From Asterias rubens (Eukaryota): a stretch of DNA of 64,000 nt. Position 1 is the first letter of the stretch, and every line of letters starts with the position of its first letter. This document shows positions 739 to 64,000 of this stretch, piece after piece. Position numbers and translations under genes: made by a program. Location: positions 6,569,047 through 6,633,046 of the forward strand of contig NC_047066.1 of assembly GCF_902459465.1 (NCBI RefSeq), in the 5' to 3' direction. Under the pieces are notes generated by a model. That model did not search any database. It was not told the origin of the DNA and saw only the letters and a program-made list of their open reading frames with translations.

Positions 739-49222
<48,484 letters not shown>

Positions 49223-51802: not shown

Positions 51803-53344
51803 GTTGAGCTAAAGGCTCACCCATTGCGTAGATAAGAGGCGGGAAATTTGGGGTGCAAAAATGGGAGATAGCATTTTCATTCATGGTGATATTTTATGCC
51901 TAAAAAGATTCAATAAGTGTTGATTACATTTGTTTCATTATTTTCTTATATTGAAAGATTCCATACTATAAGTTTCTTTTTCCTAAAGCTTGTTCTGGTT
52001 ACAATAAAAGAAAATAATTTAATGAATAAAGACTTCAAATAATATAATCAAAAGAAAAAGAAAATTTGTCAAGACCATACTTGTCTGATTTGTCAATAGA
52101 TGCCACACATCCACATTGATTTTCAATGATAAATAAATTAAATGTTCATGAAACTAATTTTATTGATTTCAAATATTTTCAAGGTTTGTCTCTTTTCAAC
52201 AAGATTGATATAAATCAAGAATAACACCCGGTTTGTCAAAAAGGCAGAATTTATACAAACTTAATGTGTAAATACCTTTACCAAATAAATGGAATTTCGT
52301 AAATCAAAAATAAGCACTTCTCTTAGCAATTTCATGAATATAATATGATAGTATAGAACAATAACATGATACTTATTTGGAGTAATAATAAGGCACATGA
52401 AAAACTTGGCAAAATATAATGAGACATATTTCTGACCGTGAAAAGCCGACTACATGTGCATAACAAGTTGAACTTTTTTTCACAATAATTAAGACAGTGA
52501 TAATTCACAGTGATTAACAATTGTTCCGATACTAATTTTTCAACTAAACTAAAACAATATCTCATTCTTTTATCAGAATTATCAATTATAAATTAGAAAC
52601 ACGAATGACATTGTGCATGACAGGGCCCAGTTTCATAAAGCTGGTTATAAGCATAAAAAAGTTGATAAGCTCAACAAAAATTTATCAGAATAAGTTTATA
52701 ACCTAAAATGACATGTTAAATGTACAAACTGTAACTGGTTATCCTGCTAAGTTTTGCTTAGCAGATAAAAATGTAAGCAATATTTTCTGCTTAAGCAGCC
52801 CTTTGTGAAATTGGGCCAAGAAGTTACACAAGATGCTATGGTCATAAGCCACTTTTGAGATTTGGTGGACACATATTATGTAAATGACATGAAATGAAAT
52901 AATGTTTTCAAATATTTTCACAAATCCTTTGATTCAAAAACAAGTTATAGTGACAATTTGCACACATGGTTTGAATACTTTAGATTTTAAACGAGGTTAC
53001 AAAGAACTCTTGTTTTGATCCAAGGAAATTTCAGTATTTTTTTAAGGATAATCAATAAAACAACCATTAAACCACTTAAAATATTTTAGTTCATGAGTTA
53101 ACCGTAAATTTTGCAATGTAACAAGTCAAAATTGCTGGTAACAAGTCAATTTGAAAAAGCGGCCCTTTGTTGTGGAGCAATTATTTTGTTTATTTGGGTT
53201 TTTCCCCGTCCAATCAATGCCCAAAATGAAGGATGGATATTATAGAATGATAAAATATTTAAAGCTTGCATGGTGTAGATAATAGGAAGGAACTACAACT
53301 AGTAAACTTCTGGGAGTTTTGTACAAAGTGTATGTGAGGTTAAT

Positions 53345-56632: not shown

Positions 56633-57288
56633 CCATCGAGTTCCGGGAACCAGACGAAGATGGCAGCAGCTTGACAAAGGTCTACTTGATCGCCTTGATG
56701 AAGACTGTCTCATCTGTCTCTGGGTAGACTGCCGGCAGCATGTCGTACTCTATCCAACCATCAGACTTGACCTCGGCCTCCAATTTCTTTAACCTGTATG
56801 TGAGAAAGAAGACAGAGTTGACTTCTACCTATATGATCCTTTATCATGCTGTCACAATCTTGGTCATGTTCCCCGTTTCCAATAACAGAGATGAATGCTA
56901 ACATTCATTGCGCATGGCACCAGACTTATTTCTTCCAGCCTCAGTTTGGTTACAATGAGTGGGAATGGAGTAAAATCATGATGGCCACACCGTGATGAAG
57001 GTCTATAGCCCTTTCCCAAGAGCTGGTCGGATTTGGAACAGGCTACCGGTGGTTGCAGTCACTGCAACAAATCCGCAAGGGTTCCAGAGAGAAGCACTGC
57101 CAACTATAAGAGGGATGGAGGTTCCAATCTCTCTCAGGACAAACTGACAAAACCACAGCTTATAAAGAACAATGTTGACAGCATATAAGCACAGAGCACA
57201 AATGGAGTTTGCAAACGACCCTCTCCAGGACAGCAGCAATGCTTTATAACAACTCAAGATTCAAGACATAGTTCGAATGTCAGCTTTT

Positions 57289-57656
57289 AAAGGCACTGGA
57301 CACTATTGGTAACTACTCAAAATATTTGTTAGTATAAAAACTTACTTGGTCACGAGTAATGGAGAGCTGTTGATAGTATGAAACATTGTGAGAAACATCT
57401 CCCTCTGAAATAATGTAGTTTTTGAGAAAGAAGTAAATTCTCACTAAAATATTTGAATTTGATTTCGAGATCTCAGAATTAGATTTTGAGGTCCCGAAAT
57501 CAAGCATCTGAAAGCACACAACTTCGTGTGACAAGAGTGTTTTTTCTTCCATTATTATCTCGCAACTTTCGACGACCACTTGAGCTCAAATTTTCACAGG
57601 TTTGTTATTTTGTGCATATGTTGAGACAATTACCAAAGGTGTCCAGTGTCTTTAAA
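57289..57656 (+). mobile_element. MITE family A copy overlapping the last codons and stop of the K/S/D/E-rich protein gene.
   Basis: TIRs aaaggcactggacactattggtaactactcaa / gacaattaccaaaggtgtccagtgtcttt. Confidence 0.8.
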
Positions 57657-57907
57657 GAGTTCAAACATATACCTCCTTTTCTCTGCAGTGTTGGCTTTCT
57701 TGATTTCCTTAATCGTCGGGCATCTGTTAAGCTTCACATTTCCCGATCGACGTCGTGCGGCAATTCTGTTCTTTCTTCCCCTCTTGAGCAACGTATCGTA
57801 GAAAATGCTGCGAAGGGCACTCTGGTGATCCTCCCTGTCCTTACTAGAGATCAAAGGCTCTTCCCATTCCAGTGGCATTGGGGTAATCAGGCCCTCACAA
57901 ATGGCTC
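57630..57907 (-). CDS. Terminal coding exon of the same gene: (R)AICEGLITPMPLEWEEPLISSKDREDHQSALRSIFYDTLLKRGRKNRIAARRRSGNVKLNRCPTIKEIKKANTAEKRRYMFELFKDTGHLW*. Stop at 57630..57632 lies inside a MITE TIR.
   Basis: Acceptor tttccacag|GAGCC at 57907, phase-1 compatible with the upstream donor. Basic C-terminal domain. The last 8 codons overlap the MITE at 57289..57656. Confidence 0.6.
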
Positions 57908-58424
57908 CTGTGGAAATGAAATGTTCAAATAATTGTCACAGTCACAAGAAAGTATTAAAAGATTTGTCAGACTGTAAATTAACTATTAAAAATAGTTTAT
58001 TCTTGTGTTTTAACACTTCAAGGCAATAGAATAAAAGAATGAATCACTATTTCCAAATTCGAAAGCGATTCAAAGAGACATATTCTTTCATCCAACTGAA
58101 CCTGGTTATCTTTTAAATACTGATTCAATTTGGATATATAAATTTTTGATGACAAAAATCTTTAAAAGTGCTGTAACTGGGGCTCAATTTCATAGAGCTG
58201 CTGTAAAAGCAGTAAACGTAGCTCAATACAAAATATGAATGCTTACCAGACTACGATCAACAGCCATAACACCATGTCACATGTACCATTCATGACTGGT
58301 AACCTGCTCCTTTTTGCTAAGCAGAAATGTTAAGCAAAAGTTCCTGCTTAAGCAGCTCTATGAAATTGGGCACAGGTAAACTAGGCCTATAAACTAGGCA
58401 ACAAGACCACTGACTTCCACTTAC

Positions 58425-61400
58425 TGTTAGTATCAGACTTGATGGTGTACATGATAGGGTCGTAATTCTTGTCGCGGATCTCTCCAAAGTTGCGGCTGGC
58501 TTTCCAAGCATCTGGTTTCGCATCAGTGGCTGGAACATTCTCCATCATTTTTCTTGCTGCCTCCTGTTTGAAAATCGTCAGCAGTTTACCCTTGTCCTTT
58601 AACAATCCATGGACTAGTGGCTTGCTCTTAATAATGTCTGAATCCAGATGTTCACTTCCCGTCAGGACAGGATTTGTTGTAGCTTTCCTTTTTACTCTCT
58701 CCTTTCTCGGTCTATTACCAACTAAACATGTACAACCATGTTTCTTGCCCCTGAAGGATTTGCCCATGTGGTCAAACGGACAAGCAGAACTTTCAACTTC
58801 ATGTAGAAATCTGCTCGGAAAGATTTGGTCAACTGATTCTTCATCGCTACTGCATGAATGTTCATCCTCAAGAACTTCTTCAGCTGTCTTTGAGCTATTC
58901 CTTGGACCTCTATCTGCCTGTTTCTTCTTACACACAACACTACTACCTTCTACTGCAAGAAGGAGACTTGAATCATCGCTGTCAAAACCATCAACTCCTT
59001 CCTCATCATCTTTACTAGCATCTTCCTCAGCCAAGTTTTCTTGCACATCACCACCCTCCTCATCAGTGTTACTCCTCACATTATCTTCACCATTTTGCAA
59101 ATTTTTCCTCATTCCAAGCTCGGTGACGATCTGTCCGCCATGACCAACATCGTCACAATGACTGCCATCTCTCATATCATCAGCTTCCCTGAGATTTTTA
59201 TCTCCATTACCAGTAGAGTTCCCTTCTCTATCTTTGTCTTCATCATCCATGAGTTTGCCAACAAGGCTTTCGACATCATTGGAGCAATCATCGTACGAAT
59301 CACTTTCTTCTTCGTCTTGATCTTTCACGCTTAAAACCAAATCTACAGTGTCAAAGTAATAATCACTATCGTCGCTGTCTTTAGCGCTCTTTGAGCTGCT
59401 CTTACCCGATGACACAGTACTGTTCATCAATTTTGTCCATGCAAGATTTTTCTTTGATTTTGTTATCGTCAAGGTTTTCTTTTCTTTTGGTTGTCCTCCT
59501 TTGGTGTCTTCCTTTGTTTCTAATTTGGTAAACTTTGTGGATTGCGCCAAACTAGAAGTGCCTCCTTGCTCTTTATCTTCAGACTTCCCACCGGATGACA
59601 GTTGTTTATTCTTCTTTGTTAATTTTCTATCATTCATTAATTCTGCAACAACTTCTGTTGCTTCCATTGTCTTTAAGGATCTTCTAAAATCACTCTTCTT
59701 CGGTGCATTTTTTATTTCTCCTTTGAGGGCTTTCTCTTGTTTTGCTGTTTTACTCTTTGTAGATTTTTTCAAACTACTGGATTTGCCAATGATGCCTAGA
59801 TCACCTTGATGGTCAGTGCCGACAGCATCTTCACCGGTATTATCAATTCTTGATTCTCCACAGTTGTCTTCAGAAGTTTTCTCAATGGGACTATTTTGAA
59901 CATCCACTTGTTTAGTCTTCCTTGCCAGTTTAGTCTTTACCTGTTTACTCTCTGTCTGTGTCTCTGTCTTCTCCAACAGTGTTTTGTTTTTCAACTTCTT
60001 AAGCGGTCTGCTCTTGTCTGGTTCACCTTCCTTCCTTTTTCCTAAATCACAACTGTTTTTAACTTGTATACTCTTTGGTGAATTTCTTTCTTTCCGTTCT
60101 CCTTCTTGGGCATTTGTCTTTGTCGATGTCTTCTTTTTGGATTGTCTCGGGCTCTCTATCAGTTTACCATTGTCCACTCTTTCATTGCAGTTGTCCAAAC
60201 TAAGGTTCTTTTCCATGCTTTCTGTCAGGACAGATTTTATCTTGGATTTGCCCATGTCAGCCATTTCAGGTAGAGTTTTTTGTGTCAACTTTTTATGTGA
60301 TTTGCTCTTGTACAATAATCCAGCGTAATTTCGGGGGTCATCTTGTTCCCTGTCCGTTCGATCAAGACTCTTTTTGATATTTTTCCTCTGAGGTGGTTTT
60401 CCTTTTTTCAAAAGTCCATCTTTGGTTTGTTTGTCTGTCGTTAATTGTGTCACCTTTCCGGACTGTTTCAAAGAATCACTTTCTTCTTCGTCTTGATCTT
60501 TCACGCTTAAAACCAAATCTACAGTGTCAAAGTAATAATCACTATCGTCGCTGTCTTTAGCGCTCTTTGAGCTGCTCTTACCCGATGACACAGCACTGTT
60601 TATCAATTTTGTCCATGCAAGATTTTTCTTTGATTTTGTTATCGTCAAGGTTTTCTTTTCTTTTGGTTGTCCTCCTTTGGTGTCTTCCTTTGTTTCTAAT
60701 TTGGTAAACTTTGTGGATTGCGCCAAACTAGAAGTGCCTCCTTGCTCTTTATCTTCAGACTTCCCACCAGATGACAGTTGTTTATTCTTCTTTGTTAATT
60801 TTCTATCATTCATTAATTCTGCAACAACTTCTGTTGCTTCCATTGTCTTTAAGGATCTTCTAAAATCACTCTTCTTCGGTGCATTTTTTATTTCTCCTTT
60901 GAGGGCTTTCTCTTGCTTTGCTGTTTTACTCTTTGTAGATTTTTTCAAACTACTGGCTTTGCCAATGATGCCTAGATCACCTTGATGGTCAGTGCCGACA
61001 GCATCTTCATCGGTATTATCAATTCTTGATTCTCCACAGTTGTCTTCAGAAGTTTTCTCAATGGGACTATTTTGAACATCCACTTGTTTAGTCTTCCTTG
61101 CCAGTTTAGTATTTACCTTTTTACTCTCTGTCTGTGTCTCTGTCTTCTCCAACAGTGTTTTGTTTTTCAACTTCTTAAGCGGGCTGCTCTTGTCTGGTTC
61201 ACCTTCCTTCCTTTTTCTTAAATCACAACTGTTTTTAACTTGTATACTCTTTGGTGAATTTCTTTCTTTCCGTTCTCCTTCTTGGGCATTTGTCTTTGTC
61301 GATGTCATCTTTTTGGATTGTCTCGGGCTCTCTATCAGTTTACCATTGTCCACTCTTTCATTGCAGTTGTCCAAACTAAGGTTCTTTTCCATGCTTTCTG

Positions 61401-63969
61401 TCAGGACAGATTTTATCTTGGATTTGCCCATGTCAGCCATTTCAGGTAGAGTTTTTTGTGTCAACTTTTTATGTGATTTGCTCTTGTACAATAATCCAGC
61501 GTAATTTCGGGGGTCATCTTGTTGCCTGTCCGTTCGATCAAGACTCTTTTTGATATTTTTCCTCTGAGGTGGTTTTCCTTTTTTCAAAAGTCCATCTTTG
61601 ATTTGTTTGTCTGTCGTTAATTGTGTCACCTTTCCGGACTGTTTCAAAGAGCTGGTCTGACTCTTATCATCATGACCACCTTCATCTGATGATGTCATTA
61701 TTGCATCATCGCTGTTTTCATTTTCGTCATCACCAAGGCCCTCATCACAGCCATTTAAGCTTTGCTCACTTAAACTCCTTGACTCTCCATGTTGCTCCCC
61801 ACATGTCGATTGCTGATGGTCGTTTTTTCCATCTTCTTTAGTGTTCCTCGATTTTGTCTTTTCCCCAGTAGAAACCCCTCTGTTTTTTACTGTTTCCGCT
61901 TCAGACAACAATCCGGTCAGTTTCTGTGGCTTTTTCGCTTTTCTCTTCACCAATAGTCCACTGTTGTCTGGATCATATTCCAAACTTTCTGTCCGACTAA
62001 GACTCTTCTTTGTTTTTGGTCCCTTCGCAGATTTTCTTCCTCTCCGTAATCCAGCTTCGGTGACTTCTTTTGACTGTGTTGCTGTTGTAGTTTTTTGGAT
62101 GATGCTGCATTCACCTGAAACTCCTCTATTTTCATCATCTGGGGAATTCACAATAGTATCATCGCTATCTGAGCCACCAATGTCAGCATCAATGTCCTTG
62201 ATACCATCGTGCTCAGTTCTGTCAATGGTTGTTTGGCCATCAACATCTTCATCATCACCAAGGTTGTCGCCCTGAACAAGATTATTCTGATCACTGTTAG
62301 CATCACCATCTTCAGATTTAGCTGCCCGACTTCTTCTGTTAAGACCGCCTCTTTTGTTACTTCCTTTCTCTTTCCGATACTCACTTGTACTTTGCAGATT
62401 GGTTTTACCACAATCTTTTTTAACCTTCGTTGATTTTGTCCGTTTTCCATCACTCCTCTGCTTACGTGTCTTTAACATTTTTTGCTTGACTTGTAACGAT
62501 CCTTTCATTTCTGATTGTTTTTCTTTTTTTATTTGTGATTTGCTCTTCTTCAACAGTCTATCGTTGAGCTTAGCTGGACAATCATCTGAACTTACATAAT
62601 CTGGGATATTCAGACTTGTGTCATCGCTGTCAGAGCCACCAATGTCTTCAGTCTCATCTTTAAGAATATCTCCCTCCTCTCTGTTTTCTTTAACATTTAT
62701 TTGTGATTTGCTCTTCTTCTTCTTTAACAGTCTATCGTTGAGCTTAGCGGGACAATCATCTGAACTTACATAATCTGGGATATTCAGACTTGTGTCATCG
62801 CTGTCAGAGCCACCAATGTCTTCAGTCTCATCTTTAAGAATATCTCCCTCCTCTCTGTTTTCTTTAACATGGCCATCAAGATTTTCATCATTATCAAGTT
62901 TGTCCTCATCAGTACATTCCTTTCTTTCAACCTGACGTTCGTCACTAACATCCAGACGAAAAACTTCATCATCATGATCACTCCCATCCCTATGATCTTT
63001 CTCGTCTCTGTCAGTAGATTCAACTGCCTGACTGCTTGGCTCCTGCTGCTTATCCTTACAATCTATTTCATGATGGCTAGTTTCAAAACCTGTTTCTTTA
63101 AAGGCCTTTGATTCTGCTTGTTTCTCCTTTGCTATCATATTTTTCTCTGCCTGCTGTTTGAAAATCTTCAACATTTTACCCTTGTCAGCCAGTAACCCTG
63201 TGGGGTTCAATCGCTTCGTCGGTTTCACCTGTTCTGATTTACTCTCGTCATCATCTAAAACAATATTTGAGCTTACTTGCTTTTGTAAGACGTTTTCTTG
63301 ACTGCCTGAAGAATTTTGATCTGTATCACTATCAGAACCATTTCCACTACTACTGATATCATTCACCCTCTCACCAATGCTGACCTTCAAATGACCAGGC
63401 ATGCCATGGCTTTCTTTAGGGGTGCCAATTAAGCTTATCTCCTCACTACTTGAAAATAGTTCGTCCAGTATTCTTCTTCGATTCTTTCGGGGTGACATTC
63501 TCCTGCCATAGACCTTATTATCTGTTATGTTTCTGTGTTGTCTATCTCTGATCACGTCTTCCTCAACTAAATTTTCACTCTGACTGTCATCGGTTACGTC
63601 AAACTCTTTAGCATCGCTGTAACAATCACTCTCTGGGTCGTCTTTCAACCTAGACTCAGTTGCTTGATCAAGGATGAAGGGATTTCCATAATCTCCATCA
63701 TCAAGTTCTTCGCTCCATTCATCCCAATTGTCAATACTAGAGAGAACATCACCTTCACCACACTCACTGGCAGAAGTTCCAACTATGGTGTGGTCATTAT
63801 CTTCCTTGTCACTGATGCCAACTTCTTCAGCACTAATGCTACCTTCTTCAGCACTACTCTCATCATTATCAATGAACTCTTCCACCTCAAAGAGTTCAAG
63901 GCTGCAGTCACTGCCACTACCATCTGCAAAAAGATCTTGATTCTCTTTGTCACTTTCTCGATCACCCAA
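58425..63969 (-). CDS. Giant single coding exon (window-truncated at its 5' side) of an unidentified Lys/Ser/Asp/Glu-rich low-complexity protein. It carries acidic serine clusters (GGSDSDDT), internal tandem duplications, and two copies of the motif GLLxDKGKxLxIFKQxA.
   Basis: Uninterrupted 1860-codon minus ORF. Ends at consensus donor AACAG|gtaagtgg (58424..58423). No stop in about 5.5 kb despite AT-rich DNA. Confidence 0.8.
59297..61648. repeat. Two tandem, in-frame copies of a 1176-bp (392-codon) unit inside the giant coding exon (59297..60472 and 60473..61648), about 99% identical.
   Basis: Direct comparison of the two blocks shows fewer than 15 substitutions. The period is exactly 1176 bp. 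Confidence 0.85.
62531..62870. repeat. Two tandem copies of an about 170-bp coding unit (VKENREEGDILKDETEDIGGSDSDDTSLNIPDYVSSDDCPAKLNDRLLKK...) inside the same exon.
   Basis: Near-identical DNA blocks 62531..62696 and 62697..62870. Confidence 0.8.
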
Positions 63970-64000
63970 GCCATCATGGACTAGAGAAACACTAATGTTA

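What the first reader, a model, noticed from the sequence alone, without database searches (positions are those of the whole stretch)
57630..63969. Unidentified 1860+ aa Lys/Ser/Asp/Glu-rich protein with CK2-type acidic serine clusters and a repeated GLLxDKGKxLxIFKQ motif
This is a huge single-exon ORF plus a short basic C-terminal exon (…PMPLEWEEPLISSKDREDHQSALRSIFYDTLLKRGRKNRIAARRRS…). The composition resembles Nopp140/treacle-like nucleolar phosphoproteins: alternating K-rich blocks and SDSDD clusters. I could not match the terminal domains to any family I know. The motif [NK]P.{1,3}GLL[AK]DKGK[ML]L[KT]IFKQ[QE]A occurs near the N-terminus (NPTGLLADKGKMLKIFKQQAEKNM) and again near the C-terminus (KPLVHGLLKDKGKLLTIFKQEAARKM). 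This hints at a short linear binding motif.
Basis: seen in the sequence. Interest (0 to 1): 0.55.

Follow-up and report, generated by a model that had tools for sequence, protein, structure and literature searches.

The report
Sea-star-only giant disordered nuclear protein gene
The long open reading frame is the 3' two-thirds of a real, already annotated but uncharacterized starfish (Asterias rubens) gene for a 2870-residue, fast-evolving, disordered and probably nuclear protein that I could detect only in sea stars; it is an ordinary orphan gene, not a new kind of system.

Summary
The ORF at 58387..63969 (- strand), its K/S/D/E-rich composition and the twice-occurring GLLxDKGKxLxIFKQ motif are all real. 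The gene model given was incomplete. The ORF runs off the window end and is the 3' part of the giant first coding exon of Asterias rubens LOC117290414 (2870 aa, "uncharacterized protein"). Two small exons follow it, not one.

There were no Pfam hits and only non-significant PDB matches. An exhaustive phmmer search with the C-terminal 247 aa against 1.84 billion representatives found only sea-star proteins (Acanthaster, Patiria; plus Asterias amurensis from an earlier search), all uncharacterized. The four proteins share:
- an N-terminal FWxDV…ISPLR block containing a CDK-consensus site;
- basic NLS-like clusters;
- an LFSSS…ARAA block;
- an acidic region followed by a basic region;
- a C-terminal module with two predicted helices and two Trp motifs;
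- both intron positions;
- for Asterias and Acanthaster, an EP400 gene downstream.

The C-terminal GLL copy is conserved in all four species. The "N-terminal" copy lies mid-protein and exists only in Asterias. The alternating charge blocks come partly from recent tandem duplications (1176 nt ×2 at 98.9% identity; a different array in A. amurensis).

The Nopp140/treacle resemblance is compositional only. My best reading, which is inferred, is a phospho-regulated nuclear polyampholyte scaffold docked through short terminal motifs. Interest is low to moderate.

The parts
58425..64000 (-). 3' part of the giant first coding exon of LOC117290414 (residues 898-2756 of 2870). It continues beyond the window end. 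The donor A|GTAAGT starts at 58424.
   Evidence: ORF list. The frame is open to base 64000. tblastn of P0001 is 100% identical apart from 9 intron read-through residues. Donor read.
57673..57907 (-). Penultimate coding exon (…RAICEGLITPMPLEWEEPL…AEKRR). It carries the first Trp motif and the first predicted basic helix of the conserved C-terminal module. Acceptor AG is at 57909-57908 and donor GT at 57672-57671.
   Evidence: The intron position is the same in Acanthaster and Patiria.
56682..56793 (-). Last coding exon (…LKKLEAEVKSDGWIEYDMLPAVYPETDETVFIKAIK plus TAG stop at 56684-56682).
   Evidence: The second Trp motif, D(G/K)WIxYxxLP, is conserved in all four sea stars.
58546..58623 (-). C-terminal GLL motif copy (KPLVHGLLKDKGKLLTIFKQEAARKM). 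This is the ancestral copy.
   Evidence: It aligns with the single GLL motif of the Acanthaster and Patiria proteins. AlphaFold2 predicts a helix here, but at low confidence.
63136..63207 (-). Mid-protein GLL motif copy (NPTGLLADKGKMLKIFKQQAEKNM, residue 1165 of 2870). It is an Asterias-lineage duplicate.
   Evidence: It is 85% identical to the other copy over a 53-nt core with unrelated flanks. It is present in A. amurensis and absent from Acanthaster and Patiria.
59299..61650 (-). Two tandem 1176-nt (392-aa) K-rich units: 61650-60475 and 60474-59299. Each carries two degenerate GLL+basic motifs and an acidic …DSDDSDYYFDTVDLVLSVKDQDEEESDS end.
   Evidence: There are 13 differences in 1176 nt, 11 nonsynonymous and 2 synonymous.
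62521..62868 (-). Two tandem 174-nt (58-aa) units encoding VKENREEGDILKDETEDIGGSDSDDTSLNIPDYVSSDD…
63541..64000 (-). Window part of the strongly acidic D/E/S-rich segment (protein residues ~851-1050).
   Evidence: In 50-residue windows, 14-17 residues are acidic against 1-5 basic.

Best explanation
The region is the 3' two-thirds of Asterias rubens gene LOC117290414. The gene has three coding exons and encodes a 2870-residue, soluble, intrinsically disordered protein. It belongs to a fast-evolving family that I could detect only in sea stars.

Shown:
- the gene structure;
- orthologues in A. amurensis, Acanthaster planci and Patiria miniata, with both intron positions shared by Acanthaster and Patiria (no A. 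amurensis DNA was available);
- an EP400 gene downstream in both Asterias and Acanthaster;
- conserved short blocks at both ends of the protein;
- a central region that expands and contracts by tandem duplication.

Inferred: the protein is nuclear. It acts as a phospho-regulated multivalent polyampholyte scaffold, with alternating acidic CK2-type Ser/Asp patches and Lys-rich blocks. It is anchored to partners through short conserved modules:
- the N-terminal FWxDV…ISPLR motif, which contains a full CDK consensus site;
- the LFSSS…ARAA block;
- the GLL amphipathic helix;
- the C-terminal two-helix, two-tryptophan module.

The disordered centre would supply electrostatic valency whose exact sequence and length are under weak constraint.
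For: **Real coding gene**
- The open frame is 1860 codons in 40% GC DNA.
- It is 100% identical to RefSeq protein P0001 within exons.
- Splice sites are canonical.

**Family and orthology**
- An exhaustive phmmer search of the C-terminal 247 aa found only P0001, Acanthaster P0003 (E 5.6e-10) and Patiria P0004 (E 3.8e-6).
- Acanthaster and Patiria have the same three coding exons with both introns at aligned positions.
- An EP400 homologue lies downstream on the same strand in Asterias and in Acanthaster.
- Conserved blocks appear in the alignments.

**Disorder and solubility**
- Fraction of charged residues 0.35, net charge about 0, normalised hydropathy 0.38. The maximum 19-residue Kyte-Doolittle value is 1.02, so no transmembrane segment or signal-like stretch.
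- AlphaFold2 on the most conserved part gives only helices: pLDDT 55-59, pTM 0.20-0.27.

**Nuclear inference**
- Basic clusters such as KRKRRRKRRKRKR, KRLKKKKRIKK and KRRRR occur in all orthologues.

**Phospho-regulation inference**
- S-P-L-R is invariant in the N-terminal block.
- There are 8 full CDK consensus sites and repeated GSDSDD(T/S) clusters.

**Labile centre**
- The repeats are 392 aa ×2 in A. rubens against 125 aa ×~8 in A. amurensis.
- Differences between the two A. rubens units are 11 nonsynonymous to 2 synonymous, compatible with little constraint.
- Identity between the two Asterias species is 93.9% in the N-terminal part against about 98% in the last 130 aa.

**GLL motif**
- GLL is enriched 8-fold: 6 observed against 0.73 expected, reached by 0 of 5000 shuffles.
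Against: - Expression, localisation and phosphorylation are all untested.
- NLS-like clusters and CDK/CK2 consensus sites arise easily by chance in K/R/S/D-rich sequence.
- No partner is known for any of the conserved blocks.
- 'Sea-star-restricted' rests on one single-sequence exhaustive search with the C-terminus only. The N-terminal blocks were never searched exhaustively.
- Two index-based searches returned nothing, not even the query's own protein. They are therefore weak negatives.
- A profile-profile search such as HHpred could still reveal a diverged known family.
Confidence: 0.6

Rival explanations
1. It is a highly diverged orthologue of a known metazoan nuclear protein, for example a Ki-67-, treacle/Nopp140-, FLASH- or RAD51AP2-type giant-exon disordered protein. 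Its homology would have eroded beyond single-sequence detection.
For: - Evolution is very fast. Conserved blocks are only about 30% identical between Asterias and the Valvatida sea stars, and Acanthaster and Patiria are 39% identical overall. At that rate, homologues in sea urchins or vertebrates would escape phmmer.
- The architecture is typical of such proteins: a giant exon, NLS-like clusters, CDK sites, acidic and basic blocks, and a small C-terminal module.
Against: - All four family members gave no credible Pfam hit even at E<=10.
- There was no PDB sequence or profile hit below E 0.1 and no structural hit.
- None of the defining domains of the named candidates is present: FHA, LisH, SRP40_C, K167R, SANT, RAD51_interact.
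- Apart from a W-acidic (kinesin light chain) pattern that three of the four proteins match, none of the other known linear-motif patterns I scanned (KEN, D-box, PIP, APIM, LxCxE, PxVxL, WIN and others) is conserved across the family.
Confidence: 0.3
2. It is a cytoplasmic cargo adaptor. The conserved [LV]-[ED]-W-E-[ED]-P element would be a kinesin light chain 'W-acidic' motif that links the protein to kinesin-1.
For: - The motif P(L/V)(E/D)WE(E/D)P is conserved in all four species.
- An ELM-style W-acidic pattern written from memory matches three of the four proteins.
Against: - The W-acidic class is recalled from memory, not tested.
- The Acanthaster sequence fails the full pattern.
- The second Trp motif (DGWIxY) is not W-acidic.
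- Dense NLS-like basic clusters point to the nucleus.
Confidence: 0.05
3. It is not a functional gene: a chance or decaying ORF, a transposon- or satellite-derived sequence, or an annotation artefact.
For: - The central repeats show mostly nonsynonymous differences, 11 to 2.
- Repeat number differs between sister species.
- The introns carry dispersed repeats.
Against: - A 5.6-kb open frame cannot arise by chance.
- Orthologues with the same three coding exons and conserved terminal blocks exist across sea-star orders.
- No transposon domain was found.
- The coding exons have no other copy in the window; only intron segments do.
- The C-terminal 130 aa are about 98% identical between the two Asterias species.
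Confidence: 0.03

Closest known systems
Uncharacterized sea-star proteins LOC110980713 (Acanthaster planci, XP_022093319, 1413 aa), LOC119743122 (Patiria miniata, XP_038075409, 1123 aa) and the Asterias amurensis orthologue (3227 aa)
   Same: - They share the N-terminal FWxDV…ISPLR block, the LLRR…RRR block, the LFSSS…ARAA block and the order acidic region then basic region.
- They share a GLL motif just before a C-terminal module containing P(L/V)(E/D)WE(E/D)P and D(G/K)WIxYxxLP.
- Acanthaster and Patiria have the same three coding exons with both introns in the same positions.
- Acanthaster also has EP400 downstream.
   Different: - The Valvatida proteins are less than half the length, have no internal tandem repeats and carry only one GLL motif.
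- A. amurensis has a different repeat array and lacks a 161-aa segment in its model.
Nopp140 (NOLC1) and treacle (TCOF1) nucleolar phosphoproteins
   Same: Both are long, disordered, K/S/D/E-rich proteins with alternating basic blocks and acidic serine clusters that fit the CK2 consensus.
   Different: - No LisH, SRP40_C or Treacle-repeat hit was found.
- The acidic clusters here are short, D-rich GSDSDD(T/S) patches, few in number and partly duplicated recently.
- No homology was detected.
Ki-67 (MKI67)
   Same: Both are giant, mostly disordered, Lys-rich nuclear-type proteins. Both are encoded largely by one huge exon, have internal tandem repeats that vary between species, and carry many CDK consensus sites. 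This comparison rests on general knowledge.
   Different: None of the FHA domain, PP1-binding domain, K167R repeats or LR domain was detected.

Membership tests
Nopp140/NOLC1 (SRP40) family | Conserved C-terminal SRP40_C domain and N-terminal LisH motif | tested here: not met
   hmmscan against Pfam-A at E<=10 on the full 2870-aa protein and on the ORF returned 0 families.
Nopp140/NOLC1 (SRP40) family | About ten long acidic Ser/Glu runs alternating with K/A/P-rich basic repeats | tested here: inconclusive
   Acidic and basic 50-aa blocks do alternate. However, the acidic clusters are short GSDSDD(T/S) patches, and several alternations are recent duplicates.
Treacle/TCOF1 | LisH N-terminus plus Treacle repeat units (Pfam Treacle) | tested here: not met
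   No Pfam hit.
Ki-67 | N-terminal FHA domain, PP1-binding domain and K167R repeats | tested here: not met
   No Pfam hit. No RVxF-type match appeared in my regex scan.
Transposable element or satellite | Transposon-type protein domains, or multiple dispersed or arrayed copies of the coding sequence | tested here: not met
   No reverse transcriptase, integrase or transposase hit. blastn of the gene region against the rest of the window hits only intron segments. The internal repeats are two in-frame tandem duplications.
Unnamed sea-star family (LOC117290414 / LOC110980713 / LOC119743122) | Significant sequence similarity of the C-terminal module | tested here: met
   phmmer E-values of 5.6e-10 and 3.8e-6 against a library of 1.84 billion proteins.
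Unnamed sea-star family (LOC117290414 / LOC110980713 / LOC119743122) | Shared N-terminal and central blocks, three coding exons with conserved intron positions, and EP400 downstream | tested here: met
   Alignments. Exon maps. EP400_N hit in the window and in Acanthaster locus L001. EP400 was not seen within 10 kb in Patiria.
Kinesin-1 W-acidic cargo motif carriers | [L/M]-[D/E]-W-[D/E] motif in an acidic context that binds KLC TPR domains | tested here: inconclusive
   The pattern, recalled from memory, matches Asterias and Patiria but not Acanthaster. Binding cannot be tested here.

The most novel reading that the evidence does not exclude
The gene founds a truly sea-star-restricted protein family. 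Its conserved pieces are new docking modules for a lineage-specific nuclear process: the FWxDV…ISPLR N-terminal motif, the GLL-plus-basic amphipathic helix, and the two-helix, two-tryptophan C-terminal module. The GLL element is being multiplied in Asterias to raise valency.
Probability: 0.4. Interest if true: 0.4.

Novelty: new member of a known kind. Interest (0 to 1): 0.25.

Why it matters
As it stands this is a taxonomically restricted, rapidly evolving disordered protein, a common class of gene. Its value is modest.
- It gives a clean example of a giant-exon disordered protein whose central valency changes by tandem duplication between sister species, while short terminal motifs stay fixed over the Forcipulatida-Valvatida split.
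- It defines a handful of conserved motifs that could be tested by mRNA injection in Patiria miniata, a tractable sea-star oocyte and embryo system.
- It does not open a long-standing question.

Tried and rejected
- **Pfam.** I scanned the ORF, the small ORF, the full protein and all three orthologues at E<=10. The only hit was a chance sub-threshold MSP match in Patiria.
- **PDB sequence searches.** A single-sequence search and two profile searches gave only E>0.1 noise: SAM37, Cup and a ubiquitin-like protein.
- **Index-based searches.** The search for homologous proteins with the C-terminal 247 aa and with a 4-sequence block alignment both returned nothing, not even the query's own protein. 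I treat them as uninformative, not as evidence of absence.
- **Structure.** AlphaFold2 on the C-terminal 192 aa and 116 aa with 4-sequence alignments gave low confidence and isolated helices. Foldseek against the PDB gave no hit below E=4. The AFDB50 library was unavailable.
- **bZIP reading.** I considered the Asterias stretch RKNRIAARRRS as a bZIP basic region. I rejected it because it is not conserved in Acanthaster or Patiria and Pfam bZIP does not hit.
- **SUMO-interaction motifs.** Candidates such as VDLVLSV+acidic, IVLDDDES and IIEII were noted. They are expected by chance in D/E/S-rich sequence and are not positionally conserved, so I kept them only as a lead.
- **Other linear motifs.** KEN, D-box, PIP, APIM, LxCxE, PxVxL, NPF, WIN and SQ/TQ scans found nothing conserved across the family.
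- **Literature.** A search for the LOC, XP and UniProt identifiers found no paper.
- **Contig lookup.** The look-up of encoding contigs has no record for P0001.
Full report
**Observation**

The window holds an uninterrupted 1860-codon ORF at 58387..63969 on the - strand. Its composition is K 13.5%, S 11.4%, D 10.8% and E 9.0%. The pattern GLL.DKGK.L.IFKQ occurs exactly twice, at ORF residues 258 and 1788. The two copies share 14 of 21 residues. I removed one copy of each recent tandem duplicate and shuffled the rest 30 times; the best match between any two 20-residue segments never exceeded 10 of 20. The tripeptide GLL is itself enriched 8-fold, with 6 observed against 0.73 expected and 0 of 5000 shuffles reaching 6.

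**Gene model**

The ORF has no ATG in its first 157 codons, and the frame stays open to base 64000. A database search returned a 2870-aa RefSeq protein, "uncharacterized protein LOC117290414 [Asterias rubens]" (P0001), and a 3227-aa A. amurensis orthologue (P0002).

tblastn places the protein on the window as follows:

| Protein residues | Window coordinates (- strand) |
|---|---|
| 898-2765 | 63999..58396 |
| 2757-2834 | 57905..57672 |
| 2834-2870 | 56795..56685 |

The nine mismatches in the first block are intron read-through beyond the donor.

Reading the splice sites gives three exons:
- Exon A runs from the window end (open) to 58425. Its donor is A|GTAAGT.
- Exon B is 57907..57673.
- Exon C is 56793..56685, followed by TAG at 56684-56682.

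The finding is therefore the 3' two-thirds of a gene whose first ~897 residues lie outside the window. The "N-terminal" motif copy sits at residue 1165, mid-protein.

**Is it a transposon or satellite?**

No. There are no transposon domains. blastn of the gene region against the rest of the window hits only three intron segments, which are dispersed short repeats also found in the introns of the neighbouring gene.

The internal repeats are in-frame tandem duplications:
- A 1176-nt unit is present twice (61650-60475 and 60474-59299). The copies differ at 13 positions, 11 nonsynonymous and 2 synonymous.
- A 174-nt unit is present twice (62868-62521).

**Relatives**

Pfam found nothing for the ORF, the full protein or any orthologue, even at E<=10. 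PDB sequence and profile searches found nothing below E 0.1.

An exhaustive phmmer search of the C-terminal 247 aa against 1.84 billion representatives found only three proteins:
- P0001 itself;
- P0003, at E 5.6e-10;
- P0004, at E 3.8e-6.

P0003 is Acanthaster planci LOC110980713 and P0004 is Patiria miniata LOC119743122. Both are labelled uncharacterized. No paper mentions any of these identifiers.

Two index-based searches returned nothing, not even the query's own protein, so I do not count them as evidence. The N-terminal blocks were never searched exhaustively. "Sea stars only" therefore holds at single-sequence sensitivity and for the C-terminus.

**Family anatomy**

The alignments show a common plan:
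- an N-terminal (D/E)FWx(D/N)V…G…ISPLR block, where SPLR is a full CDK consensus site and is invariant;
- strong basic clusters, for example KRKRRRKRRKRKR;
- an LLRR…RRR block;
- a P(F/L)xF…RR…LFSSSxxxD…ARAAxxxF block;
- an acidic D/E/S region followed by a basic region;
- a GLL…KQxAxK…N element;
- a C-terminal ~115-aa module with NR, P(L/V)(E/D)WE(E/D)P, H…L…F…L.K and D(G/K)WIxYxxLP.

Acanthaster and Patiria have the same three coding exons, and both introns fall at the aligned positions. An EP400/p400 homologue lies about 7 kb downstream on the same strand in Asterias (EP400_N, E 1.5e-16) and about 9 kb downstream in Acanthaster. Orthology is therefore well supported.

**The motif**

The C-terminal GLL copy aligns with the single GLL of Acanthaster and Patiria, so it is the ancestral element. 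The mid-protein copy is present in both Asterias species but absent from the Valvatida.

At the DNA level the two copies share 85% identity over a 53-nt core, and their flanks are unrelated. Four of the 13 shared non-Met residues use different codons, so this is an old short duplication or a constrained element, not a recent copy.

Degenerate GLL+basic versions (GLLKKGKPP, GLLYKSKSHKK, GLLVKRKAKK) recur in the K-rich repeats. This suggests that the Asterias central expansion grew from the basic region next to the C-terminal module. AlphaFold2 places a helix on KGKLLTIFKQEAARKMME, but at pLDDT below 50.

**Physical character**

- The fraction of charged residues is 0.35, net charge is about 0, and normalised hydropathy is 0.38.
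- The highest 19-residue Kyte-Doolittle value is 1.02, so there is no membrane or signal segment.
- AlphaFold2 on the best-conserved part gives two long basic helices at pLDDT 70-80 and no compact fold, with pTM 0.20-0.27.
- Foldseek against the PDB returned noise.

**Evolutionary rate**

- Asterias and the Valvatida share about 30% identity in the best blocks.
- Acanthaster and Patiria share 39% overall.
- The two Asterias species share 93.9% in the N-terminal 1600 aa, but about 98% in the last 130 aa.
- Their repeat arrays differ: 392 aa ×2 in A. rubens against 125 aa ×~8 in A. amurensis.

The centre is labile and the termini are constrained.

**Mechanism**

This part is inferred, not shown. 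The combination of NLS-like clusters, an invariant CDK site, CK2-type acidic Ser/Asp patches, blocky polyampholyte composition and small conserved terminal modules fits a nuclear, phosphorylation-regulated multivalent scaffold. The termini would dock partners and the centre would supply tunable electrostatic valency. In physical terms this works like Nopp140, treacle or Ki-67.

Membership of those families was tested and failed, because none of their defining domains is present. The main rival, at about 0.3, is that this is an unrecognisably diverged orthologue of some known metazoan disordered protein. A W-acidic, kinesin-light-chain-type reading of LEWEEP is a weak lead. The non-gene and transposon readings are essentially excluded.

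**Verdict**

This is a real, already annotated but uncharacterized, lineage-restricted disordered-protein gene. Its gene model is incomplete and its Nopp140/treacle analogy is compositional only. Interest is low to moderate.

Noticed in passing
window 8353-49267 (- strand): The downstream neighbour on the same strand is an EP400/p400 (Domino) homologue. ORF 48056-49267 hits Pfam EP400_N (E 1.5e-16). ORF 8353-8781 has a sub-threshold Myb/SANT-like hit. A giant 1333-aa Q/P/S-rich exon lies at 15168-19169, inside the stretch 16001-18000 that has 50% GC and strong GC skew. The same neighbour follows the orthologue in Acanthaster (L001 24898-25479).
   Followed up: partly
window 4260-5678 (- strand): Two adjacent ORFs form a non-LTR retrotransposon fragment. 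ORF 5037-5678 hits the reverse transcriptase model RVT_1 (E 3e-12). ORF 4260-4976 continues it without a Pfam hit.
   Followed up: partly
window 56838-57005, 57286-57626 and 58214-58371 (introns of the gene): Dispersed short repeats at 74-90% identity have other copies at 3559-3776, 19872-19970, 23418-23744, 24808-24977, 26564-26881, 38242-38397 and 52712-52816. They look like SINE or MITE elements and were not classified.
   Followed up: no
P0002 (A. amurensis orthologue) against window 58630-59110: The A. amurensis model lacks a 161-aa segment (GMRKNLQ…SKPLV) that is present in A. rubens just before the C-terminal GLL motif. It carries about eight 125-aa repeats where A. rubens has two 392-aa repeats. 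I could not tell whether the 161-aa gap is a real deletion or a modelled intron.
   Followed up: partly
P0001 residues 608-627 and 694-713 (outside the window); also 843-848 (outside) and 1072-1078 (window ~63477-63457): Further internal repetition occurs upstream of and within the finding. There is an 86-aa-spaced duplicate, S(K/R)SP(P/Q)KPTPLLRRQSHRRRI. A recurring RR(R)I(L) element is also present, and RRI and RRR are the two most enriched tripeptides. Part of it is coupled to an LFSSS motif that is conserved family-wide.
   Followed up: partly
tool behaviour: the search for homologous proteins returned no hit at all for a 247-aa fragment and for a block alignment, although the database holds the parent protein. 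Negatives from the word-index search are unreliable for short or sub-sequence queries.
   Followed up: no
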